A stretch of 28,858 nt of DNA, from positions 1 to 28,858 of the forward strand of contig JAJFMC010000212.1 in NCBI GenBank assembly GCA_021772365.1, given 5' to 3'. Source of the stretch: Chlamydiota bacterium. Lineage in GTDB: Bacteria; Chlamydiota; Chlamydiia; Chlamydiales; Criblamydiaceae. Below the pieces are notes generated by a model. That model did not search any database, had not been told where the DNA came from, and was given only the letters and a program-made list of their open reading frames with translations. Shown one piece after another: positions 13,003 to 28,858 of the stretch. A program made the translations under genes and the position numbers. Within the stretch, counting starts at the first letter, position 1. Each line of letters starts with the position of its first letter.

Positions 13003-13764
13003 ATGAATAAGGTGAAATTACTTAGAGAATTGGTTAACAGTGGTTTAAAGATATTTTCTTTAAAGGATGCAAGAGAAATGGCCATAAAAATTGGTTTAAA
13101 CGAAAAATCGGTTACAAAAATCCTTTATCATCTAAAAAAAGATGGATGGATAGAACCCATAAAAAATGGGGTATATTCTATCACCTCCGAGTCGGGTTTC
13201 GGACCACATCCTCATGATTTTGAGGTTGCCATGGCTATAGTTAATCCGTGCGCGATTAGCCACTGGACCGCTCTTCACTATCATCATCTCACCCAGCAAA
13301 CACCTAATATTATTTATGCAATCACCCCGATAGGGAGTACAATTCCCAATAAAAAGAAATCGATTTTTCACTTTGTTCGATTAAAAAAAGATCGCTATTT
13401 TGGGATTCAAAATGTCTGGATGGGAGAGGCGAAGGTTCAAATAACAGATCCGGAGCGAACGCTATTGGACGGCTTATTACATCCGCAATATTGCGGAGAT
13501 TTCAACGAGGTACTTCATGCGTTCAAGGTATGTGGAAGTGGTCTTGATCTAGATAAAATTGTTACATACTCTAAAAAATTAGGGGTCGCAACCGTGAAAA
13601 GGTTGGGATTTATATTAGAATCCCTCGGGGTAGATAATAAGTGGTTAAAAACCTTGGAAGAAGTGCCTGTTAACGGAATAAGAAAACTAGACCCAAGTGG
13701 TTCAACAAAGGGGACTAAAAGTAAAAGATGGAAAATTATTGAAAATATTGGAGGCGAATCATGA
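13003..13764 (+). CDS. abiEi: Type IV TA antitoxin, AbiEi family (wHTH + C-terminal domain)
   Basis: LKKDGWIEPIKNGVY wHTH, AISHWTALHYHHLTQQ, ITDPERTLLD. Confidence 0.88.
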   Translation: MNKVKLLRELVNSGLKIFSLKDAREMAIKIGLNEKSVTKILYHLKKDGWIEPIKNGVYSITSESGFGPHPHDFEVAMAIVNPCAISHWTALHYHHLTQQTPNIIYAITPIGSTIPNKKKSIFHFVRLKKDRYFGIQNVWMGEAKVQITDPERTLLDGLLHPQYCGDFNEVLHAFKVCGSGLDLDKIVTYSKKLGVATVKRLGFILESLGVDNKWLKTLEEVPVNGIRKLDPSGSTKGTKSKRWKIIENIGGES

Positions 13765-14639
13765 CTTTAAGTCCTCTTAGAAAAAGGTTAGATTCTGCAT
13801 CAAAAAAATCAGGCATCCGTCTTGACGTCATTCAGCAAGATTACTTACTGTCTTGGATTTTAGCGGGAATTTCACAGACTCCTTCTTTAAGTAGCTACTG
13901 TATTTTTAAAGGAGGAACAGCTCTAAAAAAGTGCTACTTCGGGGAATATCGGTTTTCTGAGGATATAGATTTTACTGCATTGAATGAGCTTCCATGTGGT
14001 GATGAATTAGAGGGTGAAATCAAAAAAGCTGTGAATATCGCCTCGGAAATGATCAATGAGTTCGCACCCGTTAAACTAAGATTTAGTAGATACAGTGAAA
14101 AATACCCTCATCCAGATGGCCAAGAAGCCTTTTCTATTTATGCTCAATACCAGTGGCAAAATCACCCACTAACGAAAGTCATGATTGAGATTACTAGAAA
14201 CGAGGATATGGTTTTAGAAAGCACAAAAAGAAGGATGATCCATTTATATGGTGAAGATATTGAAATTGATCTTCTTTCTTATTCATTAGAGGAGATTGTT
14301 CTTGAGAAGCACAGAGCGATCCTTCAGCACACCAAAAAATTGTACGAAAGAGATTGGGGGCGCTCCAGAGCCAGAGATTATTATGATCTTTGGAGGATAT
14401 TTAAGACGTACAAAGAATCACTTCAATTAGATGATTTTAAAAAAAATCTTATCCAAAAATGCAGCAAAAAAGAAGTGTTCTTCAAGGACTCGAATGATTT
14501 TTTTCAACCGATCACTTTAAATAATGTGAGGAAAACATGGAATCAGTGGCTAGGTCCTCTGGTTAAGGATCTTCCTAATGTAAATATCGTAATCGAAGAT
14601 CTTCAAGATATTGTGAGAGACCTTTTGGAGGAACAATGA
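13761..14639 (+). CDS. abiEii: Type IV TA toxin, AbiEii-family nucleotidyltransferase
   Basis: QDYLLSWIL, FKGGTALKKCYF..YRFSEDIDF, EK.RA, RARDYYDL. Confidence 0.92.
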   Translation: MTLSPLRKRLDSASKKSGIRLDVIQQDYLLSWILAGISQTPSLSSYCIFKGGTALKKCYFGEYRFSEDIDFTALNELPCGDELEGEIKKAVNIASEMINEFAPVKLRFSRYSEKYPHPDGQEAFSIYAQYQWQNHPLTKVMIEITRNEDMVLESTKRRMIHLYGEDIEIDLLSYSLEEIVLEKHRAILQHTKKLYERDWGRSRARDYYDLWRIFKTYKESLQLDDFKKNLIQKCSKKEVFFKDSNDFFQPITLNNVRKTWNQWLGPLVKDLPNVNIVIEDLQDIVRDLLEEQ

Positions 14640-17447: not shown

Positions 17448-20147
17448 ATGACCAATGAAATGACAATCATCACATATGGAGGCGGAGAGATCTTATTCAA
17501 GTTATTTACTGGAATAAAGATGGTCTTCGATAGTGGATTCATTAAATGGATGTCATATTGCATGGCATCGATTACGGCTGTATATGTGATTTATTTGTCA
17601 TACTTTAAGCCACATCCTGATCATCTAACGAAGAATTTTCTTTTTCCCGTATTAGCTCTTGTTATTTTATGTTTCAATGTAAAAACCACGGTTTATATTG
17701 AAGATTGTCTCCCTCTTTCCCAAGGGGGAATCAATTGGACTTCAGGTAATCGCAGTCAAAATACGGAACATGTAGCTCAACCTTCCAGAAGTGTTGATGG
17801 GGTTCCCTTTATCATTGGTTTCCTCTCGAAAACAATAAGTTCTTTGGGTTATCAAATGACTCTTGCTGTCGAAAGCGTTTTTCACGAGGTTGATGATGAA
17901 AAGTACTCGAAAACTGGGATGATTTTTGGCGCAGAAACCGCCCTAGATATGAATGAAATTGTGATCAATGATGGAAATTTGGACAGTAATCTACGCACTT
18001 TTTGTAGAAACTGTATGCTTTACGACTTGGCGTTAAATCTCTATACCCTAAAAGACTTGAAAAACGAAACAAATCTACTAGATTTTCTAAAGGAAAGAAC
18101 AGCAAAAAGCCGTTATATGAATTACATTGATAATTCTTCAGAACAAACTAAATTGATTTCATGCAAAGAGGCTATCGAGAATATCTCAAAAAAACTCGAA
18201 AAGGGTGGCCCTGAAGTAGCACATCAACAAAACAAGCAAATCTTCAGAAATTTACCTATAGCCTATCAAGCATTGACTAAAGTGTCTGGAGATAGCGAAG
18301 AGATCATCAAACAGCTTCTTGTGATGAGTGTTGTAACCGAAGAGATGTCTTCTCAAGCCTTCGCCTCCAAAAGAGCAGCTCTTCAACAAAAAACTACATG
18401 GAAAACTATGGGCGGTATCGCTGATGGATTGGTTATTACAACTCGTTGTGTAATAGAGTCCTTGATTTATGGAGCTGTTCTCTTCGTGATCCCTTTGTTG
18501 TTCCTTCCATCAGGGTTTACTTATTTGAAAACATGGGTTTGGCTTTTGGTGTGGATTCAACTATGGCCTCCATTTTATGCGATTTTAGATTATATAAGTT
18601 TGATAGCTGCTAGGGGACAATCCGATGGACTGTTTGATTCCAGTAGGGCTAATACTTGCTGTCTTTCGATATATAATACGATTGGCCTTTCCAATGTTTA
18701 TGGAAATATCTCGGCTTACGCAAAATCCATGAAAATTCTAATTCCCCCACTATCTTATGCCATATTACAGGGGGGAGTTGGATCCTTTGTCCATCTCACA
18801 AGCTCAATGATGGGAGCTTCTCAGCAGGCTGTTTCTCAGGCATCATCTGACGAGATGTCGGGGAATTACAGCTTTGCTAACGCAAGCATGGACACCAAAA
18901 ATTTTTCCAATGCTACTTACGGACAACAAAATTATGCCTCCTCAACTAAATCAGGTTTTGTTAGCAGAGAGTCAATAGGGGAAAAAGTTGATTTTTCCTC
19001 TGATGCAAGCGTCATGCAAGAGAAACGTACAGATTTGTCTCATGGTTTTTCCGTTGATGAATCATTTAGAAGTAGCTTAGCAGAAAACCTTACAACTTCA
19101 CAAACAGCGCATGAATCTTCAGCAAGAAGTCTAAATGAGAGTATCTCAAATACAGGAAGAGATGCTAAGGATTTCACTTCCCATGTAGCTCATGACTTAA
19201 GTTATAGCACCTCTGATTCCACAAGTGAATCTTTTGAAGCATCAAAGGCCGCACAATTCATGGAAAATAAAGCGGATACATTTGCAAAAGACCATCGATT
19301 AAGTTCAGATGCCTCCTGGGAAATTTTTGGATCAGTTGGAGCGGGTATCCCCGGTACAGATGTTAGAATGGGAATTAGCGCAAAACACGGGATTACTTCA
19401 AGCGACACATGGAACGACGCCTTATCCGTCAGTGAATCTACTGAATATCGAGAGGCATTCAATAAAGTAGAAAACTTTGCAAAGAATTTCTCACAGAATT
19501 CTACTGATGGGGAGGGGGAGAGAATGGCGACATCATTTACTCAATCAGTTGATCAGATGAGATCGGACTCTATGCAATATTCAACAACACTTGATAATAT
19601 GAACCAATCTTCGCATGCATCCAGCTTCTATAACGATTGTTCTCTATCTGAAAGACAGGATTTAACGCAAAAATTTCTGGATTTTGCAATTGATGAGAAA
19701 GGATATAGCATTAATCAATTTCCCAATAAAATTATGGAAGATTCAGTGGCCTCCAAGGAATTAGTTCAAGACTTTACTTCTGCTCTAATTCCTAAGATAG
19801 AGGCCCCTCAGGATTATATCGATCCGGAAAATTTTTACAGGGGATCAGTTGAAAGTATCGAAAATCAATCGACTATAACGACTTCTGTAAGTTCAGAGCG
19901 GTTTGGAAGCATGAATATGGGGGGATCTGTGAAAAATGATGTTGCGGAGAAGCTGTTGGTAAAACAGAACCATAACAATAAGTTTGAAGATACAAGAGAT
20001 CTGATTAGTGAGGCAAAAGATTTGGTTCATACAAAAACGGTTGATAAACAACCAGTTAGTTTAAGGGAATTAGACCTTGAGATCAATTGGAATCAGTCAT
20101 TTGATGATGATGTTGCACCTAACTATAGTTACTGGTGGGGAAAATAA
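17448..20147 (+). CDS. traG: TraG (F-type, VirB6-like N-terminus)
   Basis: IITYGGGE, VDGVPF, WIQLWPP.YAIL, multiple TMs, Ser/Thr-rich C-terminal half. Confidence 0.92.
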   Translation: MTNEMTIITYGGGEILFKLFTGIKMVFDSGFIKWMSYCMASITAVYVIYLSYFKPHPDHLTKNFLFPVLALVILCFNVKTTVYIEDCLPLSQGGINWTSGNRSQNTEHVAQPSRSVDGVPFIIGFLSKTISSLGYQMTLAVESVFHEVDDEKYSKTGMIFGAETALDMNEIVINDGNLDSNLRTFCRNCMLYDLALNLYTLKDLKNETNLLDFLKERTAKSRYMNYIDNSSEQTKLISCKEAIENISKKLEKGGPEVAHQQNKQIFRNLPIAYQALTKVSGDSEEIIKQLLVMSVVTEEMSSQAFASKRAALQQKTTWKTMGGIADGLVITTRCVIESLIYGAVLFVIPLLFLPSGFTYLKTWVWLLVWIQLWPPFYAILDYISLIAARGQSDGLFDSSRANTCCLSIYNTIGLSNVYGNISAYAKSMKILIPPLSYAILQGGVGSFVHLTSSMMGASQQAVSQASSDEMSGNYSFANASMDTKNFSNATYGQQNYASSTKSGFVSRESIGEKVDFSSDASVMQEKRTDLSHGFSVDESFRSSLAENLTTSQTAHESSARSLNESISNTGRDAKDFTSHVAHDLSYSTSDSTSESFEASKAAQFMENKADTFAKDHRLSSDASWEIFGSVGAGIPGTDVRMGISAKHGITSSDTWNDALSVSESTEYREAFNKVENFAKNFSQNSTDGEGERMATSFTQSVDQMRSDSMQYSTTLDNMNQSSHASSFYNDCSLSERQDLTQKFLDFAIDEKGYSINQFPNKIMEDSVASKELVQDFTSALIPKIEAPQDYIDPENFYRGSVESIENQSTITTSVSSERFGSMNMGGSVKNDVAEKLLVKQNHNNKFEDTRDLISEAKDLVHTKTVDKQPVSLRELDLEINWNQSFDDDVAPNYSYWWGK

Positions 20148-21820
20148 TGACTGATGTGATGAAATCCATAGCGGAAGGAGGGCAAACTTGGGCGCACAGG
20201 ATGCGCATGATCCGTCAGGTTCTTAAGATTATAGTATTAACCTCTCTATTTATCCTTTTGGCAACGGTTGTTTCTTCTATGCTGTGGAATAACAGCTCTT
20301 TGCTCATAGCACTTTATTACAACGTAAAAGCATCGCTCGTCTCTGTGTTTGATAATCAGATATTAATAGATCCTCATCTTTGGAAAAAGGTGACTGGGAT
20401 TTCACATGGAAATAGAGAACTTACCATGTCTGTCAGTAGAGTATTAAAGATAACAAATCCTCAAGTGGATAAACTTTATGCCGAATTTTTGAAAAGCATG
20501 TTCTTGGGATTGAAGATCTTTTCTGTTAGCACGCTAATGATGCTCTCATATTTTTTACTCCGTGGACTTAGCTCGAAAAGGAAAAAGCATCTTTCAGGAT
20601 CAAAAATTGCAAATTCCATGATTCTCATATTAAGGCTTTACCTTTTCAGAAAAGCATCAAATATAAAAATTGGATCGCTTCCATACGTGATAAATACAGA
20701 AACGAAACACACCCTTATAACTGGTGGAACGGGAAGCGGAAAAACAAATTGCCTTCATCACATTCTGTCATCAATTAGAGAATCTAAAGCAAAAACAATT
20801 GTGATTGACACAACCGGAACATTTGTCTCACGTTATTATCGAGAAGGAAAAGACATCATTCTTAATCCCTTTGACGAAAGGGGAGTTGCATGGAGTCCAT
20901 GGGCAGACTGTGAAGATAGATTTGATTATGAAGAAATGGCCGAGAGTTTTATTCCTATATCTAATAGAGAAAGTGAGGGATACTGGAGAACAGCAGCCAA
21001 GTCTCTATTTTCTTCCCTATTGCAAAAACTAGATGAGACTAAAAGAATATCCGATCTTGTGCGATGGGTTCTTTTTTCTTCCCTTCAAGATTTAAGCGCC
21101 TTTGTAGAGGGGACAAAAGCCGCTTCTCACATAGATATCAACTCCGAAAAAACCGCAGGTTCCGTCCGTTCTGTAGCCTCTTCCTTTCTAGAATGCCTAG
21201 AATATCTAAAAGATACAGAGAATCCCTTTTCCATCAAACAGTGGATCAAAAAAGAGGATGACTCTTGGCTCTTTATTAGCTGTAAACCATCGCAACGTGC
21301 TTCCATAGCCCCTCTTATCACCAGCTGGATCTCCATTGCCGTTAGGGGAGTCCTCTGTCTAGAGCCATCAAGAACACGCCGTATTTGGTTTGTCCTAGAC
21401 GAGCTTCCAACCCTAAACAAGGTCAAAGGTTTGGAAACACTTCTGACAGAGGGCCGTAAATACGGGGCATGCTCACTTTTAGCCCTACAAAGCCCCTCTC
21501 AACTAGATTCAATCTATGGCAGAGATATTTCTCATATAATCGCGGGTAATTGTTCTACAAAGATCGTTTTTTCAGAGTACGATCCTGAAATCGCAGAGCG
21601 TATCTCAAAAGTTTTTGGTAAAAGCGAAATAGAGGAGTATCAAGAAGGCATCTCCTACGGAGCTCATGAGATGAGAGACGGAGTTAACATTTCCCGTCAA
21701 AAGAAAAACCAAGCAACTGTTTCAGCTACTGACATCCAAAATTTACGTCCAAATCAGGCGTATGTAAGGTTATCAGGGAAGATTCCTATTACTAAGCTGA
21801 AATTGAAGATTGTTCGGTAA
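20147..21820 (+). CDS. traD: TraD type IV coupling protein
   Basis: ATG 20147 overlaps the traG TAA. Walker A GGTGSGKT, LNPFDER..WSPW, Walker B WFVLDELPTL, GRKYG, EGISYGA. Confidence 0.93.
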   Translation: MTDVMKSIAEGGQTWAHRMRMIRQVLKIIVLTSLFILLATVVSSMLWNNSSLLIALYYNVKASLVSVFDNQILIDPHLWKKVTGISHGNRELTMSVSRVLKITNPQVDKLYAEFLKSMFLGLKIFSVSTLMMLSYFLLRGLSSKRKKHLSGSKIANSMILILRLYLFRKASNIKIGSLPYVINTETKHTLITGGTGSGKTNCLHHILSSIRESKAKTIVIDTTGTFVSRYYREGKDIILNPFDERGVAWSPWADCEDRFDYEEMAESFIPISNRESEGYWRTAAKSLFSSLLQKLDETKRISDLVRWVLFSSLQDLSAFVEGTKAASHIDINSEKTAGSVRSVASSFLECLEYLKDTENPFSIKQWIKKEDDSWLFISCKPSQRASIAPLITSWISIAVRGVLCLEPSRTRRIWFVLDELPTLNKVKGLETLLTEGRKYGACSLLALQSPSQLDSIYGRDISHIIAGNCSTKIVFSEYDPEIAERISKVFGKSEIEEYQEGISYGAHEMRDGVNISRQKKNQATVSATDIQNLRPNQAYVRLSGKIPITKLKLKIVR

Positions 21821-21917
21821 CGGGGATAGGGGTGAGATTGTCGCACACCGACCGAATCCGACCCCTCAATAAATGGATATCTAATGATAGGCAGAAATCA
21901 GAAAAAAGGTCCATTTT

Positions 21918-22036
21918 TACGTATAGTAAATCCAAGGCACTTTTTTTTAATGTAGATTGATTTCCAGTATCTTATGAAATGAGCTGTTTTGTTGAAGTTT
22001 GAATTGGAAAAAACGTCTAATTTTTGTTGGGCGCTG
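21918..22036. repeat. 119-bp direct repeat, copy 1 (IS-end-like)
   Basis: tacgtatagtaaa...tttttgttgggcgctg; three mismatches to 25445-25563. Confidence 0.95.
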
Positions 22037-22040
22037 ACTG

Positions 22041-22826
22041 AATTTTGGGCGTCAAGCGGATAGGCATGGTTTGCAACATTAGCAGCTTGTGGTGGAAAGT
22101 CGACTAAAGATGAACACAATCATGAAGCGGGTGAAAAGCCTAATGCACACGAGGAACACTCAGGGGAAGAAGGTGGACACGGCGGTCAGGAAGAGGCAGG
22201 TATTAGGGAAGTTCATCTTTCTGATTTCAAATTTAAGAGTCTTGGAATACGTGTCGATTCGTTGCCAAATAGAAAACTATCTGGGGTAGTTTATGCAAAT
22301 GGTCAGCTGGAAGCGCCTCCACAGCACGAAGCAACGGTTACTGTAATATTGGGAGTGAATATTCAATCAATAAAAGTAATTGAAGGAGATCAAGTCAGAA
22401 AAGGACAAACTTTAGCCTATTTAGCGCATCCTGATTTGAGTAACCTTCAGGCTTCATACCTTAAAGCCTATAATCAAAGTTTATATCTCGAAAAAGAGTA
22501 CAAACGCCAAAAACGATTGTATGAAGAAGAGGTCGGTTCAGGTAAGCAGTTTCAGGAAGTGGAATCGAAATACCAATCTGTAAAAGCTGAAATGATGGCG
22601 TATGAATCGCAATTAAAGCAGCTCAGTCTGAGCGTAACAAATATCCGTGAAAGGAAAATTTATGATCAAATTTCAATTGTCAGTCCAATTGATGGATACA
22701 TTGAAAAATGTGTTGATTCAAATTGGACAATATGTTTCTCTGTCAACTACATTTTTTAAGGTTGTAAACCTTACAGTAAGTGGAATATGCGACAAATACA
22801 CTAAATTAACCCCCTTAGGAAAATGA
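22041..22826 (+). pseudogene. Degraded Bacteroidetes-type RND periplasmic adaptor (CzcB/CusB-like lipoprotein)
   Basis: Frame open from 22064: ..ATLAAC-GGKSTKDEHNHE..EVHLSD..GQLEAPPQHEATVT..SPIDGYIEK. No start codon, an apparent +1 frameshift in the signal region, a +1 frameshift at about 22709 (continues VLIQIGQYV) and C-terminal loss. Confidence 0.8.
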
Positions 22827-25324
22827 AAAAACTACAAATACAAATACCCCTCATTCTGCCTGAAGTACCTGATGAAAAAGATGAATGTGTACATAAACTG
22901 ATTAGTCTCATTCATGATGTCGAAGGCCTGCAAAAAGTACATGTGGCAGATGAAACTGACAATGGAGTGCCACAGCTTTGTTTTCATTACGATCCTGAGA
23001 AGATTTCCCTTGATCATATTCTAAAGTTAGCTAAACGTACAGGGGCTTCCATTATTGATAAATACGGTCATCAATTGATTGAGGTAGAAGGGATTCGTCA
23101 TACTCGTCATGCCAGAATAATTGAAGAAGCACTCAAGAGATTAGATGGAGTTTTAGAGTGTGTAGTGTCTGCTTCGGGTATGATCCGATTAGAATTTGAA
23201 ACGGCAAAAATTGAAAAAACGGAAATCCTTAAATTACTGCGTAAGGAAGGTTTAGACATTATTACTACAGAAGTACAAGTCGAACGGTATATAAGAAAGA
23301 CTGCCGATAACGATGTAGAGGTCAGACAAAATGAAGAAAAAGACCGCAATGACCATGAGGAAGGCGAAGGACATAATCATTCCCACGAGGGAGTTTTTGG
23401 TAAAAATACGGAGCTAATTTTCTCCATTATTTGTGGAGTACTATTGGGTATTGGGTTCGGACTTTCCTTTGTGGAAACGATTCCTTCTTGGGTAATCCTG
23501 TCACTCTACATTGGGGCGTATTTCTTCGGAGGGTATTTTACTGCCAAAGAAGCAATTCAAACAGTTGCAAAAGGGGGCTTTGAGATTGATTTTCTCATGC
23601 TGGTGGCTGCTATTGGAGCAGCTATTTTGGGTGAATGGGCAGAAGGTGCCTTGTTGCTGTTCCTGTTCAGCATGGGACATGCCTTGGAACACTACGCCAT
23701 GAACAAAGCCCGTAAATCCATTGCCGCTTTAGCAGAACTGGCTCCTAAAACGGCCTTGCTTAAGAAAAATGGGAAAATAGAAGAAATAGATATAAAAGAA
23801 CTGAGCCTTGGAGACATCATTGTAGTGAAGCCCAATAGCAAAATTTCAGCTGATGGGGTGGTCGTCAGAGGTACAAGTAGCGTTAACCAGGCTCCTATAA
23901 CCGGGGAAAGTGTACCTGTAGACAAAGAACCTGTGGATGATCCCGATAAAGACTGGTCGCAGGAAAAAGACATCAAGGATGAGAACCGTGCTTTTTCAGG
24001 TACGATCAATGGTAACAATACACTGGAAATCAAAGTGATAAAAGTAGCGAAGGACTCTACACTCTCTCGCCTGGTGAAATTGGTCAATGAAGCCCAGACC
24101 CAGAAATCACCTACCCAGCGGCTCACCGATAAATTTGAGAAGTATTTTGTGCCTGCTGTTTTGGTACTGGTGGTCTTGCTCAATTTCGCTTTTCTGGTCA
24201 TTGATGAAAGCTTTAGCGAAAGCTTCTACCGCGCCATGGCAGTACTGGTTGCTGCCAGCCCTTGCGCTTTGGCCATAGCCACCCCGAGTGCCGTGCTAAG
24301 TGGAGTAGCCCGAGCAGCCAAAAGTGGGGTGCTTATAAAAGGCGGGCGTCCATTGGAAGATTTAGGAGTACTTACTGCCCTGGCTTTTGATAAAACCGGA
24401 ACACTAACAGAAGGTAAGCCTAAGTTAACGGAGGTGGTACCCCTGAGTGATGTGAAAGAAGATGAACTACTGAAAATAGCAGTGGCTGTAGAGAGTCTCA
24501 GTGATCACCCTCTGGCAAAGGCCGTAGTGCGTGATGGGAAAGAGCGACTGAATGATGCTGACATACCAGTAGCGAAGGACCTTGAAGCCGTGCTTGGCAA
24601 GGGGATCAAAGCCACACTGGGTAGTGACAAAGTTTACATTGGCAACCTGGATCTGTTTGAGTCGCTGGATGACAAGAAGCCATCAAAGGAAACAGAAGAA
24701 AAAGTAAAGTCTTTAGAGTCTGATGGCAATACCACCATGCTCATCCGACAGAATGACGATTACATAGGCATCATAGCCTTGATGGATACGCCAAGAAAAG
24801 AAGCCAAAAACACCCTGGAAAAACTGAAAAAGATGGGTATCAAGCGCATGATCATGCTTACTGGAGACAATCAGAAAGTGGCCGATGCGGTAGCCAAAGA
24901 AATAGGGCTTACAGATGCCTGGGGAAGTCTCTTGCCCGAAGAAAAAGTGGATGTAATCAAAAAATTGAAAGAGCAAGAATCCAAAGTAGCCATGGTGGGC
25001 GATGGCGTAAATGATGCCCCGGCCATGGCCAACAGTACAGTAGGTATCGCTATGGGGGCAGCAGGAAGTGATGTAGCTCTGGAAACTGCGGACATTGCCC
25101 TGATGGCTGACAAGCTGGAAACCTTACCTTTTGCAATCGGTTTAAGTAGAAAGGCCAAAGGCATTATCAAACAAAATCTCTGGGTGAGTTTAGGAATAGT
25201 GGGTATTTTAATTCCACTTACTATCTCCGGCATTGCAACCATCGGGCCTGCTGTTTTAATACACGAAGGCTCAACCTTGGTTGTAGTATTCAACGCATTG
25301 CGATTGTTGGCTTATAAAAATTGA
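22823..25324 (+). CDS. cadA: Heavy-metal-translocating P-type ATPase (P1B; SPC/HEGST, CadA/CzcP-like)
   Basis: TGES, SPC, DKTGTLT, SDHP, GDGVNDAP, HEGST. N-terminal HMA-like domains and a His-rich linker. Confidence 0.95.
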   Translation: MKKLQIQIPLILPEVPDEKDECVHKLISLIHDVEGLQKVHVADETDNGVPQLCFHYDPEKISLDHILKLAKRTGASIIDKYGHQLIEVEGIRHTRHARIIEEALKRLDGVLECVVSASGMIRLEFETAKIEKTEILKLLRKEGLDIITTEVQVERYIRKTADNDVEVRQNEEKDRNDHEEGEGHNHSHEGVFGKNTELIFSIICGVLLGIGFGLSFVETIPSWVILSLYIGAYFFGGYFTAKEAIQTVAKGGFEIDFLMLVAAIGAAILGEWAEGALLLFLFSMGHALEHYAMNKARKSIAALAELAPKTALLKKNGKIEEIDIKELSLGDIIVVKPNSKISADGVVVRGTSSVNQAPITGESVPVDKEPVDDPDKDWSQEKDIKDENRAFSGTINGNNTLEIKVIKVAKDSTLSRLVKLVNEAQTQKSPTQRLTDKFEKYFVPAVLVLVVLLNFAFLVIDESFSESFYRAMAVLVAASPCALAIATPSAVLSGVARAAKSGVLIKGGRPLEDLGVLTALAFDKTGTLTEGKPKLTEVVPLSDVKEDELLKIAVAVESLSDHPLAKAVVRDGKERLNDADIPVAKDLEAVLGKGIKATLGSDKVYIGNLDLFESLDDKKPSKETEEKVKSLESDGNTTMLIRQNDDYIGIIALMDTPRKEAKNTLEKLKKMGIKRMIMLTGDNQKVADAVAKEIGLTDAWGSLLPEEKVDVIKKLKEQESKVAMVGDGVNDAPAMANSTVGIAMGAAGSDVALETADIALMADKLETLPFAIGLSRKAKGIIKQNLWVSLGIVGILIPLTISGIATIGPAVLIHEGSTLVVVFNALRLLAYKN

Positions 25325-25444
25325 AAAAAAGCACATTCAAAATAACCAAAATGGACTGCGCCTCCGAGGAGCAAATGATCCGTATCAAGCTGGAAGGCTT
25401 TAGTCAGGTAAAGCAGTTAGGGTTTGATATTCCAAACCGGAAAC
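25321..25444 (+). pseudogene. 5' fragment of HMA-domain cation transporter (CDF-type), truncated by the repeat
   Basis: TTG overlapping the ATPase stop reads MKKSTFKITKMDCASEEQMIRIKLEGFSQVKQLGFDIPNRKL, then enters repeat copy 2. Resembles the recalled Bacteroidetes MDCxSEEQMIR N-terminus. Confidence 0.65.
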
Positions 25445-25563
25445 TACGTATAGTAAATTCAAGGCACTTTTTTTTAATGTAGCTTGATTTCCAGTATCTT
25501 ATGAAATGAGCTGTTTTGTTGAAGTTTGAAATGGAAAAAACGTCTAATTTTTGTTGGGCGCTG
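25445..25563. repeat. 119-bp direct repeat, copy 2
   Basis: Same orientation as 21918-22036; 116/119 identical. Confidence 0.95.
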
Positions 25564-26072
25564 GAAGCCATAAATATATGGGTTTTTCTTTAGAAATTTC
25601 TTGTTTCTGACAAAAATTGGCTATTTCAAAATAGAGGGGAGCCTTCGACTTCTAGTCATGCCTTATCAACGAAGGAGGTTTCATAGGCAATTATCTCCCA
25701 GATCCACATACTCAGTTTCTTCAAAAAAAGGGTGGGATTGTGGAACTCAAATGTTGTGAAAGCTTGATAACTGGCTATCAGTTGGATTACTAGTGAATTT
25801 TTTCCGCAGGAAACTCGAATGGAAAAGACAACAAAGTAACGAAGAATATTTAGATTCACAGTGAACTGTAGAATCTGTACAGTCTTGATTTTTCATGTCG
25901 TTGTATCGTTGAAAAAGGCTGGGCTTAAACGGATTATTTCTACCTAGTCAGTCAAGCACTTAAATAATTTTAGAATAACATTTGTAAAAAATGAGGATAT
26001 TCACGATGATCCAATCAGTAATATAGAAAGGTGAATTATTAAATATTAAATAAATCGGATTGGTTCTATTGA

Positions 26073-27350
26073 ATGTGTAACTATAGAATGAGTAGTGTTA
26101 TTTTAACTATCTGTATAACAGTCTTTTATCACTTCCATTTACCTGCAGATACAATTCAATCCCATTCGGCTATTACACTTAGAGATGCTCTATCTTTAAC
26201 TCTAATGCATAATCCTGAACTTAAAGGCTCCATTTATCAGATACGATCCAAAAAGGGAGAGGTAATCCAATCGAGTTTAATACCGAACCCTGAAATTGAA
26301 GGAGAGATCGAGGATTTTGGAGGAGGGGGTGTTTTTTCTGGTTTTGATTCTGCTGAGTCAAAAATACGACTCAGTCAGCTTATTGAATTGGGGGGAAAGA
26401 GGCATAAAAGACGTAGAGCAGCCTGTTATGACAAATCTCTAAGTTATTGGGATTATGAAACAATAAAATTAAATGTCTTGGAAGGAACAACGAAGGCGTT
26501 TCTGAAGGTTCTTTTTTCTCAAGAGAGAATAAAATTGGTATCTGTCATCCATGATTTAGCTGAAGAAGTTTATGAAACGGTGAAACAAAGAGTTCAAGCT
26601 GGAAAAGACTCACCTCTCGAAGAATCGAAAGCTAGCATAGCTTTATCGACAACGCAGATTGAAAAAGAAAAGGCAGAGAGAAAATTATTATCAGCAAAAA
26701 AACAGTTAGCTTCCTTTTGGGGTAACGACCATTTTGCCATTAGCGAAGTAAATGGTTATATTGACCAGCTTGTTACTATCCCTGAGTTCGAAAAATTACT
26801 GCCATGTATCATAAGAAATCCCGACCTTATTAGATATAACGATGAGTTTAAATATCGCAAAGCAGTCGTTGAGTTAGAAAGGTCTAGAGGGATACCCGAT
26901 ATTACAGTGAGTGGTGGGGTAAAAAATTACCAAGAGACAGATGATTATGCTTTTATTGTGAGTTTCTCAATACCCATTCCAATATTTGACTGGAATCAGG
27001 GGCGAGTTTACAGTTCACGATCTCAGTTACACAAAACCCAAGAAAATTATATTTCTACAGAAGTGTTCATCAAAACAAGGCTATACGAAGTCTTTCAAAC
27101 TCTTTCTAATAGCCATTACGAAGCAGAAGTCTTAAGAAATCAAATCTTACCCAAAGCTCAATATGCATTTGAGGCTTCGAATATAGGGTATCGCGAGGGC
27201 AAATTTGATTATCTAGATGTTCTTGATGCCCAAAGAACGTATTTCAGTGCAAAAATTCAATATCTCGATATTTTACTGGGTTATCATTTGGAGCTTACAG
27301 AACTTGAACGCTTGATTGGTGGATCCCTCGAAAAAGTGGTGAGGTTATAA
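26073..27350 (+). CDS. czcC: TolC-family outer membrane factor (CzcC-like)
   Basis: PNPE, SQLIELGGKR, PDITVSGG, SIPIPIFDWNQG, GKFDYLDVLDAQRT. Start may be 26088. Confidence 0.88.
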   Translation: MCNYRMSSVILTICITVFYHFHLPADTIQSHSAITLRDALSLTLMHNPELKGSIYQIRSKKGEVIQSSLIPNPEIEGEIEDFGGGGVFSGFDSAESKIRLSQLIELGGKRHKRRRAACYDKSLSYWDYETIKLNVLEGTTKAFLKVLFSQERIKLVSVIHDLAEEVYETVKQRVQAGKDSPLEESKASIALSTTQIEKEKAERKLLSAKKQLASFWGNDHFAISEVNGYIDQLVTIPEFEKLLPCIIRNPDLIRYNDEFKYRKAVVELERSRGIPDITVSGGVKNYQETDDYAFIVSFSIPIPIFDWNQGRVYSSRSQLHKTQENYISTEVFIKTRLYEVFQTLSNSHYEAEVLRNQILPKAQYAFEASNIGYREGKFDYLDVLDAQRTYFSAKIQYLDILLGYHLELTELERLIGGSLEKVVRL

Positions 27351-27351
27351 A

Positions 27352-28542
27352 ATGAAAAATATGAAGGTTCTATTCATTGGATTGCTCTTTTGTATTGGAG
27401 CCATTGTTATAGCTGTATGGTGGACTTCTAGTGAATCCGGTTCCCCTAATAGCGAAAAACACCATGAGGAAGAAGATGGTGAAAGACATGTTCTTTTGTC
27501 AAATGATGAAGTTGAAGAATTTGAAATAGAAACCGAAGTGGCTAAACCTGGAACTATCGAAGCTATTGTCACCCTATCCGGTGAGGTTACATTCAATGAA
27601 AATCAGCTGGCTCATATTGTCCCTCGTGTGGACGGTGTCGTTAAAGATGTGACTATAGCCATTGGAGATCGTGTAGAGAAAGGACAACTCCTTGCAACAA
27701 TTGAAAGTAGGGAGCTTGCTGATCTAAAAGGGGATCTCCTACAGGCAAATGAAAGGTTGAAGTTGGCAAGGAGTCAGTTCGAAAGAGAAAAAGGACTATT
27801 CGAAAAGAAAATCACTGCTGAACAAGAATTTCTTGATGCGAAAAAAAACCTTGAAGAAGAAAAAATAAAATTGCTGTCGGCTGAAAATAAATTGCGTGTG
27901 ATTGGATTTGCTAATGAAGAAATTGAGGGTTTTAAATCCGGAAAAAAACACACCTCAACGTTCTATGATATGCGTTCACCTATTTCGGGTACAGTCGTTC
28001 AAAAACATCTAACCCTTGGAGAAAAAATTGATAGCAGTACCAACGCTTTCACCATAGCAAACCTTGGTAATGTATGGGTAAATTTAACTATTTATCAAAA
28101 AGATCTCGATAAAATCGAGCTTAATCAACCTGTAACAATTTTTTCTAAATCAAAAATTCTAAAAGCATCGGGAAAGATAGAGTACATTAGCTCTTTTTTG
28201 GACGAACAGACACGCACGGCAACGGGAAGAGTGGTATTAGGAAATGAGTCAAAAATCTGGAAACCAGGAATGTTTGTTTTAGGTAAAGTCTCAGTGGGTG
28301 AGAAAAATGTACCGACAAAAATACTTCGATCGGCAATCCAAATGATGAATGGACAAGAGGTTGTGTTTATCAAAAAAGGGAATTCTTTTCATCCGGAAGC
28401 GGTTACATTGGGACAAAAAGATGATAATTTTATAGAAGTACTTTCAGGATTGGAAAATTCCCAGGAGTATGTGAAAAAGAACGGATTCGTTTTGAAGGCT
28501 GAGCTTGAAAAGGAGTCATTTGGTGGTGGGCATAATCATTAA
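27352..28542 (+). CDS. czcB: RND membrane fusion protein (CzcB-like)
   Basis: N-terminal TM, His/Glu-rich segment, HIVPRVDG, MRSPISGTV, WKPGMFV, C-terminal GHNH. Confidence 0.88.
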   Translation: MKNMKVLFIGLLFCIGAIVIAVWWTSSESGSPNSEKHHEEEDGERHVLLSNDEVEEFEIETEVAKPGTIEAIVTLSGEVTFNENQLAHIVPRVDGVVKDVTIAIGDRVEKGQLLATIESRELADLKGDLLQANERLKLARSQFEREKGLFEKKITAEQEFLDAKKNLEEEKIKLLSAENKLRVIGFANEEIEGFKSGKKHTSTFYDMRSPISGTVVQKHLTLGEKIDSSTNAFTIANLGNVWVNLTIYQKDLDKIELNQPVTIFSKSKILKASGKIEYISSFLDEQTRTATGRVVLGNESKIWKPGMFVLGKVSVGEKNVPTKILRSAIQMMNGQEVVFIKKGNSFHPEAVTLGQKDDNFIEVLSGLENSQEYVKKNGFVLKAELEKESFGGGHNH

Positions 28543-28563
28543 TAATAGACTCCGGAGAGGTTT

Positions 28564-28858
28564 ATGTTAAAAAAACTTATCGATATAGGCTTACATAATC
28601 GTTTATTGATGACTATATTGATGGTAATAGTGATGGCTGCTGGGTACTGGTCTTATCGGAACATCCCTGTCGACGCCTTTCCAGATGTCTCTCCAAATTT
28701 GGTTCAAATTTATACAACGACAGAAGGTCTTGCTCCTGAAGAAGTAGAAAAGTACGTTACGTACCCTATCGAAGTTGCTATGACAGGGCTTCCCGAGATT
28801 GAAAAAATCCGGAGTGTTTCCAATTTTGGACTCTCTGTCGTCAATGTATACTTCAATG
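28564..28858 (+). CDS. czcA: CusA/CzcA heavy-metal RND pump, N-terminus (partial, window edge)
   Basis: MLKKLIDIGLHNRLL..IPVDAFPDVSPNLVQIYT...GLAPEEVEKYVTYPIEVAMTGLP..RSVSNFGLSVV. Not in the ORF track because it has no stop within the window. Confidence 0.92.
   Translation, partial: MLKKLIDIGLHNRLLMTILMVIVMAAGYWSYRNIPVDAFPDVSPNLVQIYTTTEGLAPEEVEKYVTYPIEVAMTGLPEIEKIRSVSNFGLSVVNVYFN

What the first reader, a model, noticed from the sequence alone, without database searches (positions are those of the whole stretch)
22037..25444. Probable cross-phylum transfer of a Bacteroidetes metal-resistance fragment, pruned to one working gene
Seen: the adaptor has lost its start, has two frameshifts and is truncated; the ATPase is intact; the transporter is cut after about 41 codons. 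By eye, the ATPase core uses more GC-ending codons (ctg, gcc, acc) than the tra genes. Knowledge (recall): the N-termini LQIQIPLILPEVPDEKDECV, GQLEAPPQHEATVT and MDCxSEEQMIR, and this gene order, are typical of Flavobacteriia clusters. Inference: horizontal transfer, perhaps in a shared protist host, with selection retaining only the self-sufficient ATPase.
Basis: partly seen in the sequence, partly recalled or inferred. Interest (0 to 1): 0.68.

Follow-up and report, generated by a model that had tools for sequence, protein, structure and literature searches.

The report
Bacteroidota metal pump in chlamydial element
A 3.4-kb piece of a metal-resistance gene cluster from marine Bacteroidota, with only its zinc/cobalt/cadmium export pump still intact, sits between two 119-base direct repeats just after the DNA-transfer genes of an environmental chlamydia; it is a clear, recent case of a known kind of cross-phylum gene transfer.

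Summary
The adaptor remnant has one premature stop and one frameshift, not two frameshifts.

**The segment.** Bases 22037-25444 lie exactly between two 119-nt direct repeats (97.5% identical). The segment carries:
- a decayed RND adaptor gene;
- an intact 833-aa P1B-4 ATPase with SPC, HEGST, DKTGT and TGES motifs, E = 7e-241 to sCoaT (7QBZ);
- the first 31-41 codons of a CDF transporter.

**Origin.** The ATPase is 84-90% identical in protein (76-83% in DNA) to Cytophagales and Flavobacteriales genes and nests inside them in a tree. In 400 genomes of the host's phylum the best match is 43%.

**Host.** The host bin is a chlamydial MAG: RpoB is 85-90% identical to Chlamydiota and the bin has at least five nucleotide transporter genes. 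The flanking tra and czcCBA genes match the bin's tetranucleotide composition and have chlamydial relatives. The insert matches Bacteroidota composition instead.

**Assembly.** Independent contigs from a second sample bridge the right junction. The two repeat copies carry different variants with different flanks. A chimera is therefore unlikely.

**Not shown.** The donor order, a protist venue, post-transfer selection on the pump, and how the repeats arose.

The scan's sibling note on this same stretch (e1-5284568) had already flagged the repeats. Verdict: a new member of a known kind, of moderate interest.

The parts
20135..21820 (+). traD (coupling protein), last gene of the F-type tra operon; chlamydial backbone to the left of the insert
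   Evidence: TrwB_AAD_bind E = 5.5e-132. Homologues in 34 of 300 genomes of the same order, up to 60% identity. Tetranucleotide r = 0.963 to the rest of the MAG.
21918..22036 (+). Left copy of the 119-nt direct repeat (R_L)
   Evidence: Found nowhere else in the MAG, in about 200 genomes of the same order or in viral contigs. No Rfam, tRNA, Pfam or fold signal. A Logan contig links traD to this copy and stops at its last base.
22037..22769 (+). Pseudogene of a CzcB/CusB-type RND periplasmic adaptor. It has no start codon, a TAG at 22061-22063 and a +1 frameshift near 22709. Its C-terminal ~165 codons are deleted.
   Evidence: HlyD_D23 E = 4e-11; RND_mfp and CzcB/NccB hits. tblastn gives 57-65% identity to Bacteroidota adaptors over residues ~5/16-242.
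22770..22822 (+). Short spacer before the ATPase start, with no match in the sampled donor loci. A sigma-70-like promoter match (22724-22753) lies just upstream, in the adaptor remnant.
   Evidence: No short-blast hit. Promoter scan, which found no more matches than shuffled sequence, so this is weak.
22823..25324 (+). Intact P1B-4-type heavy-metal (Zn/Co/Cd-class) exporting P-type ATPase, 833 aa, of Bacteroidota origin
   Evidence: Motifs TGES 360, SPC 479, DKTGT 523, GDGVNDAP 726, HEGST 814. 7QBZ E = 6.7e-241. 90% identity to Marivirga atlantica and an Owenweeksia MAG. One change at 391 otherwise invariant columns.
25321..25444 (+). 5' stub of a CDF (CzcD-like) transporter gene with an N-terminal MDCxSEEQMIR motif. 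It is cut after 41 codons, or 31 from the MDC start.
   Evidence: tblastn 65-74% identity to residues 1-34/37 of Bacteroidota CDFs. DNA comparison of the breakpoint. CDF lies immediately downstream of the ATPase in 24 of 80 Bacteroidota loci.
25445..25563 (+). Right copy of the 119-nt direct repeat (R_R)
   Evidence: A Logan contig from run X2 spans 25400-26076 with no mismatch. It links the CDF stub, this copy and the chlamydial flank.
25564..25979 (.). Non-coding stretch of unknown origin between R_R and the czcCBA cassette
   Evidence: No Pfam hit for its small ORFs. No match in L132 or other loci.
25980..28858 (+). czcC-czcB-czcA (start) RND metal efflux cassette of chlamydial type, the likely functional partner of the pump (context)
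   Evidence: OEP, HlyD_D23 and ACR_tran domains. CzcB homologues in 22 of 151 genomes of the order, up to 58% identity. 88.5% nt identity to a 108-kb chlamydia-like metagenome contig, starting at 25980. Tetranucleotide r = 0.952 to the MAG.

Best explanation
A linear piece of a Bacteroidota metal-resistance cluster (RND adaptor, P1B-4 ATPase, CDF transporter) was inserted recently into the cargo zone of a chlamydial F-type conjugative element. The site lies between traD and a chlamydial czcCBA cassette.

The capture cut the donor DNA about 5 codons into the adaptor gene and 41 codons into the CDF gene. Only the ATPase arrived whole. The adaptor remnant has since picked up a stop, a frameshift and a 3' deletion, or arrived with them.

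The insertion duplicated 119 nt of the target. The most likely route is illegitimate, microhomology-level joining or template switching, in which the return to the resident template landed 119 nt upstream of the point of departure. No transposase or integrase is needed for this.

The pump would export Zn/Co/Cd-class cations from the cytoplasm to the periplasm. The adjacent CzcCBA system could then expel them across the outer membrane.

Shown: the foreign origin, the chlamydial flanks, the integrated two-repeat structure, and the intactness of the pump. Inferred: the joining mechanism, expression (read-through from the tra operon or a chance promoter), substrate, and cooperation with CzcCBA.
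For: **Origin**
- The 120 best of 8000 hits are 84-90% identical. Nearly all that carry a name are Bacteroidota; the few MAGs labelled otherwise look misbinned.
- Of 80 genome loci, almost all are titled Bacteroidota, with a few Balneolota and Ignavibacteriota and three MAGs labelled otherwise.
- The window's protein nests in a clade of Cytophagales, Flavobacteriales and Marinilabiliales with SH-aLRT 96 and 100. It is separated from native chlamydial P1B ATPases by branches of 2.7 + 2.7 changes per site.
- In 400 genomes of the host phylum the best match is 42-43% identity. The MAG has its own native P1B ATPase on C188, at 36%.
- The gene order adaptor, ATPase, CDF is that of Bacteroidota loci, and L034 and L035 are exactly collinear.

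**Host**
- RpoB is 85-90% identical to Chlamydiota.
- The MAG has at least five TLC nucleotide transporter genes.
- The best named TraC hit is Waddliaceae.
- TraD occurs in 34 of 300 genomes of the order and CzcB in 22 of 151.
- The tra and czc flanks have tetranucleotide r = 0.96 and 0.95 to the rest of the MAG. The insert has r = 0.82 to the MAG and 0.89 to Bacteroidota flanks, a difference reached by 0 of 400 MAG chunks.

**Integration is real**
- R_L and R_R differ at 3 sites. R_L is linked to traD in run X1.
- R_R is linked to both the CDF stub and the czc flank in run X2, from another sample.
- Depth of the insert is similar to the depth of the flanks.

**Recent event**
- There are no stops in the 215 adaptor codons after the TAG, with a stop target of 40 site-equivalents. 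This implies neutral divergence below about 0.075 per site.
- The repeats are 97.5% identical.
- The insert's composition is not ameliorated: ATPase GC3 is 0.41, against 0.44 +/- 0.04 in Bacteroidota.

**Pump intact**
- All motifs are present, and only one change (T319I) falls on 391 otherwise invariant columns.

**Joining**
- No transposase, integrase, tRNA or inverted repeat is present.
- A 7-nt word is shared between the end of R and the first 20 nt of the insert, reached by 166 of 20000 shuffles.
- Only 1-5 nt are shared at the right junction.
Against: - No listed contig bridges the left junction 22036/22037. It rests on the deposited assembly and on elimination.
- No empty site or donor sequence was found, so the junction mechanism cannot be read directly.
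- The nearest sampled donor is only 83% identical in DNA, with dS about 0.6-0.7 on the window's branch. The true donor lineage is unsampled, and an intermediate host cannot be excluded.
- A 119-nt target duplication is unusually long for illegitimate insertion.
- The 7-nt shared word lies beside the left junction, not across it.
- Expression in the chlamydial host is untested. The promoter-like match is no better than chance.
- C127 is assigned to the chlamydial bin by composition and gene kinship only; coverage was not compared.
Confidence: 0.8

Rival explanations
1. Same origin, different mechanism. A circular unit made of one repeat plus the 3.4-kb cargo (3527 nt) integrated into a resident copy of the repeat. 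This happened by homologous (Campbell-type) recombination or by a site-specific recombinase or relaxase encoded elsewhere. The two repeats would then be attL/attR-like sites and the cargo a cis-mobilizable cassette.
For: - Exact flanking by direct repeats is the classic product of such integration.
- The 3 mismatches could be pre-existing differences between two alleles of the site.
- The site lies in the cargo zone directly after traD, where chlamydial plasmids are reported to carry Ti-type traA/traD genes (PMC5010888).
- The neighbouring czcCBA also behaves as an exchangeable cassette.
Against: - The window has no integrase, relaxase or transposase.
- The repeat has no tRNA, inverted repeat or stable fold, z = 0.71.
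- No third copy was found in the MAG, in about 200 genomes of the order, or in viral contigs.
- This model does not explain how a truncated Bacteroidota fragment came to lie next to the repeat in the first place.
- No circle junction was seen, although k = 31 contigs could not show one.
Confidence: 0.2
2. Artefact. The Bacteroidota segment was joined to a chlamydial contig by misassembly, or the whole contig is misbinned and belongs to a non-chlamydial host.
For: - The MAG is fragmented: 432 contigs, 61% complete.
- The left junction is not bridged by a listed Logan contig.
- Some public MAGs labelled Rickettsiales or Phycisphaeraceae carry this Bacteroidota cluster, which shows that it does get misbinned.
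Against: - A chimera would need two misjoins at truncated genes, each next to a slightly different copy of a repeat that is absent from every Bacteroidota locus examined.
- An independent assembly of another sample bridges the right junction without a mismatch.
- Insert and flanks have similar depth in X1 and X2.
- No other Bacteroidota piece of the cluster is in the MAG.
- Contamination is 0.69%.
- The flanks match the MAG in composition and have chlamydial homologues.
Confidence: 0.06
3. Indirect route. The fragment did not come straight from a Bacteroidota cell. It was passed on, already truncated, from another plasmid or another intracellular bacterium.
For: - The nearest sampled Bacteroidota gene is only 83% identical in DNA.
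- No donor above 95% identity is present in the same biofilm runs.
- The backbone is conjugative, and related tra elements occur in several metagenomes.
Against: - Tetranucleotide composition and GC3 are still Bacteroidota-like.
- The pseudogene carries very few disruptions.
- The ATPase's 90% cluster has no other member among 15 billion proteins.
- No copy was found in 400 genomes of the phylum.
Confidence: 0.2

Closest known systems
sCoaT of Sulfitobacter sp. NAS14-1 (PDB 7QBZ/7QC0), the archetypal P1B-4 ATPase (PMC8880997); same subclass as CzcP, CtpD and PfeT by my own knowledge
   Same: Aligns over residues 171-832 at E = 6.7e-241. It has the SPC motif in M4, the HEGxT motif in M6 (here HEGST), and the DKTGT, TGES and GDGVNDAP motifs.
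   Different: The window's protein, like its Bacteroidota relatives, has an extra N-terminal region of about 170-200 residues. This region has a His-rich linker and a weak cysteine-free CopZ-like hit. sCoaT is described as lacking classical metal-binding domains. The substrate was not tested.
Bacteroidota czcA, adaptor, P1B-4 ATPase, CDF clusters (e.g. Cryomorphaceae MAG L035, Marivirga atlantica L050, Owenweeksia MAG L002)
   Same: Same three genes in the same order and on the same strand. ATPase 85-90% identical in protein and 76-83% in DNA; adaptor 58-70%; CDF stub 65-74%.
   Different: Here only a 3.4-kb excerpt is present, in a chlamydial backbone. There is no czcA, no P-II or Fur genes, a broken adaptor and a 41-codon CDF stub.
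F-type conjugative plasmids and islands of environmental chlamydiae (Pam100G, pPNK, pRm1, the Simkania plasmid; the Criblamydia sequanensis megaplasmid with cation efflux systems)
   Same: An F-type tra operon in a chlamydial genome. Chlamydial plasmids carry cation efflux systems. About 7% of the proteins of the C. sequanensis plasmid have best hits in Bacteroidetes (PMC4208316).
   Different: No relaxase or Ti-type traA/traD follows traD in this window. The cargo here is a dated, still unameliorated fragment bracketed by 119-nt direct repeats. I did not find this described in the papers read.
CzcP plus CzcCBA cooperation in Cupriavidus metallidurans (own knowledge; also raised in the scan's note e1-5284570)
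   Same: A P1B-4 pump next to an RND czcCBA system, consistent with two-step export from cytoplasm to periplasm to outside.
   Different: The two parts here come from different phyla and are juxtaposed by insertion. Cooperation is inferred, not tested.

Membership tests
P1B-4 heavy-metal P-type ATPase | P-type core: DKTGT phosphorylation site, TGES actuator motif, GDGxNDxP hinge | tested here: met
   DKTGT at 523, TGES at 360, GDGVNDAP at 726. E1-E2_ATPase and Hydrolase domains. TIGR01525 scores 602 bits against a cut-off of 346.
P1B-4 heavy-metal P-type ATPase | SPC motif in M4 and HEGxT motif in M6 (PMC8880997) | tested here: met
   SPC at 479 and HEGST at 814. Both align to the same motifs of 7QBZ. 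Motif definition taken.
P1B-4 heavy-metal P-type ATPase | No classical CxxC heavy-metal-binding domain | tested here: inconclusive
   There is an N-terminal extension of about 200 residues. It has only a weak CopZ-like hit (E = 2.5e-4, below cut-off) and no CxxC motif that I noted when reading the printed translation. Its fold was not modelled.
P1B-4 heavy-metal P-type ATPase | ATP-driven export of Zn/Co/Cd-class cations | not testable with these tools
   Needs expression and a metal-tolerance or transport assay.
RND periplasmic adaptor (CzcB/CusB type) | Complete protein with signal peptide, barrel-sandwich, beta-barrel and C-terminal domains in one open frame | tested here: not met
   Only residues ~5-242 of ~409 remain. 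There is no start codon, one TAG and one frameshift. HlyD_D23 covers profile positions 3-121 of 214 only.
CDF (CzcD-like) cation diffusion facilitator | Cation_efflux transmembrane domain | tested here: not met
   Only 31-41 N-terminal codons remain. No family hit. Homology ends at 25444.
Transposon or IS-bounded unit | Transposase gene, terminal inverted repeats, short target-site duplication | tested here: not met
   No transposase domain in the ORFs scanned. No inverted repeats at the ends. The flanking repeat is direct and 119 nt long.
Integrase-borne island or cis-mobilizable element (att-flanked) | Flanking direct repeats (attL/attR) | tested here: met
   119-nt direct repeats at both ends.
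Integrase-borne island or cis-mobilizable element (att-flanked) | Cognate integrase in cis or in the host element; target usually a tRNA gene | tested here: not met
   No integrase domain found in the window and no tRNA. The rest of the element lies beyond the contig, and the MAG is 61% complete.
F-type conjugative element of Chlamydiota (backbone) | F-type tra genes with chlamydial kin | tested here: met
   TraG_N and TrwB domains. Best named TraC hit is Waddliaceae, at 50%. TraD occurs in 34 of 300 genomes of the order. Collinear relatives L087, L109 and L111.
F-type conjugative element of Chlamydiota (backbone) | Relaxase and oriT | not tested
   I found no relaxase between traD and czcCBA in the ORFs I scanned. 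The window's other ORFs were not scanned, and the whole element is not on this contig.

The most novel reading that the evidence does not exclude
The 119-nt repeat is a recombination site at the end of the tra operon, recognised by a relaxase or by an integrase encoded elsewhere. Chlamydial conjugative elements would use it to capture and stack cargo cassettes. The foreign pump module would then be a cassette caught shortly after capture, and the czcCBA cassette next to it an older one.
Probability: 0.1. Interest if true: 0.65.

Novelty: new member of a known kind. Interest (0 to 1): 0.4.

Why it matters
Environmental chlamydiae are obligate intracellular bacteria, and how much foreign DNA still reaches them is debated. 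Here the transfer is unusually clear:
- both breakpoints are mapped to the base;
- the donor phylum is unambiguous;
- the host backbone is conjugative;
- the event is young enough that the broken neighbour genes are still readable.

It shows that DNA from free-living marine or aquatic Bacteroidota can enter a chlamydial mobile element. It also shows that a single self-contained pump can be placed beside a resident RND system.

It gives a concrete locus for PCR, long reads and expression tests, to ask whether chlamydial tra elements actively collect metal-resistance cargo. It does not reveal a new kind of system.

Tried and rejected
**Searches for the repeat that found nothing**
- The rest of the MAG.
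- About 200 genomes of the order: only 26-43-nt chance matches.
- Viral contigs.
- Rfam and tRNA.
- Pfam on the small ORFs.
- DNA fold, z = 0.71.
- Loci of related tra elements and what follows traD in 10 chlamydial relatives.

**Search for an empty site**
- A metagenome scan with TraD returned only distant relatives, 33-41% identical.
- The closest tra relatives (TraC 74-83%) are on contigs whose stored part ends before traD. Those records could not be searched further.
- No joint or loose end at the junctions appeared in 4 runs.

**Other attempts**
- The protein atlas gave no taxa for RpoB.
- dN/dS of the adaptor remnant: synonymous sites are saturated against every sampled relative, so there is no estimate.
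- dN/dS of the ATPase branch is 0.05-0.06. With dS at 0.6-0.7 it mostly reflects time in Bacteroidota.

**Readings rejected**
- Transfer from chlamydiae to Bacteroidota.
- The repeat being part of the donor DNA.
- The repeat being a remnant of the ~170-aa gene that follows traD in relatives.
- A composite transposon.


Full report
**What is in the sequence.** The window is one whole contig (C127, 28,858 nt) of a fragmented MAG: 432 contigs, 2.29 Mb, 61% complete, 0.69% contamination. An F-type tra operon runs on the + strand and ends with traD at 21820.

A 119-nt sequence at 21918-22036 recurs at 25445-25563 in direct orientation, with three mismatches. The finding's coordinates, 22037-25444, are exactly the DNA between the two copies. 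Downstream, from 26073, lie czcC, czcB and the start of czcA.

**The three pieces.** Tblastn with Bacteroidota adaptor proteins shows that the adaptor remnant reads in a single frame from the repeat boundary to 22708.
- It begins about five codons into the signal peptide, so the start codon is missing.
- It has an in-frame TAG at 22061-22063 and keeps the lipobox.
- It shifts by +1 near 22709, and 23 more residues align up to 22769. That is about residue 242 of some 409.
- The last ~165 codons are gone. ORF 22089-22289 is out of frame and spurious.

The ATPase (22823-25324, 833 aa) is open and complete.

The transporter stub runs from TTG 25321 (MKKSTF...) or ATG 25351 (MDC...) to 25444. That is 41 or 31 codons. 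DNA homology to Bacteroidota genes stops at 25444/25445, the first base of the right repeat.

**What the ATPase is.**
- It passes the curated cut-offs for heavy-metal P-type ATPases.
- It aligns over residues 171-832 to sCoaT, the P1B-4 ATPase of Sulfitobacter (7QBZ), at E = 6.7e-241.
- It carries TGES, SPC, DKTGT, GDGVNDAP and HEGST. SPC and HEGxT are the motifs assigned to the P1B-4 metal site (PMC8880997).
- Like its Bacteroidota relatives, it has an N-terminal extension of about 200 residues that sCoaT lacks.

**Where it comes from.**
- Among 5.8 billion proteins, the 120 best hits are 84-90% identical. Nearly all named ones are Bacteroidota, such as Algoriphagus, Roseivirga, Cyclobacterium, Fulvivirga, Marivirga, Thermophagus and Owenweeksia. 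A few MAGs labelled otherwise look misbinned.
- Eighty named genome loci say the same.
- In a maximum-likelihood tree the window's protein sits in a clade of Cytophagales, Flavobacteriales and Marinilabiliales, with SH-aLRT 96 and 100. Native chlamydial P1B ATPases lie across branches of 2.7 + 2.7 changes per site.
- The same tree shows identical proteins in different Bacteroidota orders. The gene is mobile within that phylum, so the donor order cannot be named.
- Adaptor upstream and CDF downstream on the same strand is the usual Bacteroidota arrangement (59 and 55 of 80 loci). Two loci, L034 and L035, are collinear with the window without intervening genes.
- In 400 genomes of the host's phylum the best match is 42-43% identical. 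The MAG has its own native pump on another contig, at 36%.

**Who the host is.**
- RpoB of the bin is 85-90% identical to Chlamydiota such as Estrella, Waddlia, Neochlamydia and Parachlamydia.
- The bin has at least five TLC nucleotide transporter genes, which none of 14 control genomes have.
- The best named TraC relative is a Waddliaceae MAG.
- TraD occurs in 34 of 300 genomes of the same order, at up to 60% identity. CzcB occurs in 22 of 151, at up to 58%.
- F-type tra operons on chlamydial plasmids and islands, and chlamydial plasmids with cation efflux systems and some Bacteroidetes-like genes, are already described.

**Composition.**
- GC3 separates the insert only weakly.
- The ATPase's GC3 (0.41) lies within the Bacteroidota range of 0.44 +/- 0.04.
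- Tetranucleotides are decisive. The tra and czc flanks correlate with the rest of the MAG at 0.96 and 0.95.
- The insert correlates at 0.82 with the MAG and 0.89 with Bacteroidota flanks. None of 400 random 3.4-kb MAG chunks shows such a reversal.

**Is the junction real?** Logan contigs of four biofilm metagenome runs from one study hold the region at 100% identity.
- A 677-nt contig from run X2 spans 25400-26076 without a mismatch. It bridges the CDF stub, the right repeat and the chlamydial flank.
- A contig from run X1 links traD to the left repeat and stops at its last base. This is expected at k = 31, because the last 32 nt of the two copies are identical.
- The copy joined to traD and the copy joined to the czc flank carry different variants. 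A single chromosomal repeat plus a separate circle therefore does not fit.
- Depth of insert and flanks is similar (4.6 against 4.7 in X1; 4.8 against 3.5 in X2).
- No listed contig bridges the left junction itself, and no empty-site form was seen.
- No other piece of the Bacteroidota cluster is in the MAG.
- I put an artefact at about 6%.

**Timing and selection.**
- On the window's terminal branch the ATPase has dN/dS 0.05-0.06, but dS is 0.6-0.7. Most of that branch must lie in an unsampled Bacteroidota lineage.
- The reason is that the adaptor remnant is barely damaged. It has no stop in the 215 codons after the TAG, despite a stop target of 40 site-equivalents. This bounds neutral decay at about 0.075 per site.
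- The repeats differ by only 2.5%, and the composition is not ameliorated.
- Post-transfer selection on the pump is therefore only suggested. Both small disruptions fall in the 0.73-kb remnant and none in the 2.5-kb ATPase; by my own arithmetic the chance is about 0.05.
- The pump has one change (T319I) at 391 columns that are otherwise invariant in 79 relatives.
- The outer limits of the fragment were set by the capture event. Only the stop, the frameshift and the internal deletion are pruning.

**How it got there.**
- The segment has no transposase, integrase, tRNA or inverted repeat.
- The repeat has no detectable function or kin.
- At the right junction the donor-type sequence and the repeat share only 1-5 nt.
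- Beside the left junction a 7-nt word is shared between the end of the repeat and the start of the insert, reached by 166 of 20000 shuffles.
- I favour illegitimate joining or template switching, with a 119-nt target duplication.
- The rival is integration of a circular, repeat-bearing unit by homologous or site-specific recombination. I give it about 0.2.
- An empty site or a close donor would decide between them. Neither could be found.

**Context.** The czcCBA cassette from 25980 onward, continuing on contig C331, is 88.5-89.7% identical in DNA to a 108-kb metagenome contig. That contig's other genes match the MAG at only about 70%, and its upstream genes are unrelated to tra. The zone after traD therefore holds at least two stacked cargo modules of different origin.

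In several chlamydial genomes a native P1B ATPase lies within a few kb of czcB. Pump plus RND system is thus a familiar pairing in this phylum. Here it has been re-created with a foreign pump.

**Verdict.** This is a real, well-delimited and recent Bacteroidota-to-Chlamydiota transfer onto a conjugative backbone, with one intact P1B-4 pump. It is a clean new example of a known process. The one unexplained feature is the pair of 119-nt direct repeats.

Noticed in passing
window 25980-28858 (and MAG contig C331 1-2843); L132 9908-15581: The czcCBA cassette is 88.5-89.7% identical in DNA to a 108-kb JGI metagenome contig. That contig's other genes match the MAG at only about 70%, and its upstream neighbours are PP2C, catalase and GH64 genes, not tra. 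The cassette looks horizontally exchanged among chlamydiae, with a sharp left boundary 93 nt before czcC.
   Followed up: partly
G121:C24, G044:C25, G076:C4, G056:C5, G100:C9: In several chlamydial genomes a native P1B ATPase (36-39% identical to the window's) lies within about 4-5 kb of a czcB homologue. A pump plus RND pairing therefore exists natively in the phylum.
   Followed up: no
window 13003-14639; L087 13523-15095; L109 11988-13635; L111 14586-16049: The slot between traN and traF is variable in related tra elements. The window and L087 carry AbiEi/AbiEii there. L109, L110 and L111 carry an AAA-type ATPase (PF01637) instead.
   Followed up: no
L034 (MAG labelled Rickettsiales NP5), L043 (MAG labelled Phycisphaeraceae NAT22): These contigs carry the Bacteroidota cluster. 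L043's ATPase is identical to one from a Cyclobacteriaceae MAG. They are probably misbinned Bacteroidota DNA rather than further cross-phylum transfers.
   Followed up: no
L070/L072, L013/L014/L015, L069/L073: Identical ATPase proteins occur in different Bacteroidota families and even orders, for example Gelidibacter with Albibacterium and Cyclobacterium with Algoriphagus. The cluster rides a very mobile element within that phylum.
   Followed up: no
L012, L018, L019 (about 6969-7042): These Cytophagales loci also carry a CDF stub downstream of the ATPase, cut after about 15 codons (MDCPSEEQMIRMKLES, then unrelated sequence). The start of this gene is a recurrent breakpoint.
   Followed up: no
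L132 6866-7103; MAG contigs C44, C218, C424, C89, C86, C7, C225: A 70-130-nt sequence in the related metagenome contig matches seven MAG contigs at 72-85% identity. It is a dispersed short repeat family in these chlamydial genomes, unrelated to the 119-nt repeat.
   Followed up: no
window 21821-25979: No relaxase or Ti-type traA/traD follows traD here, although these are reported downstream of the F-type operon on chlamydial plasmids (PMC5010888). In four of ten relatives examined, a conserved gene of about 170 aa follows traD; it is absent here.
   Followed up: partly
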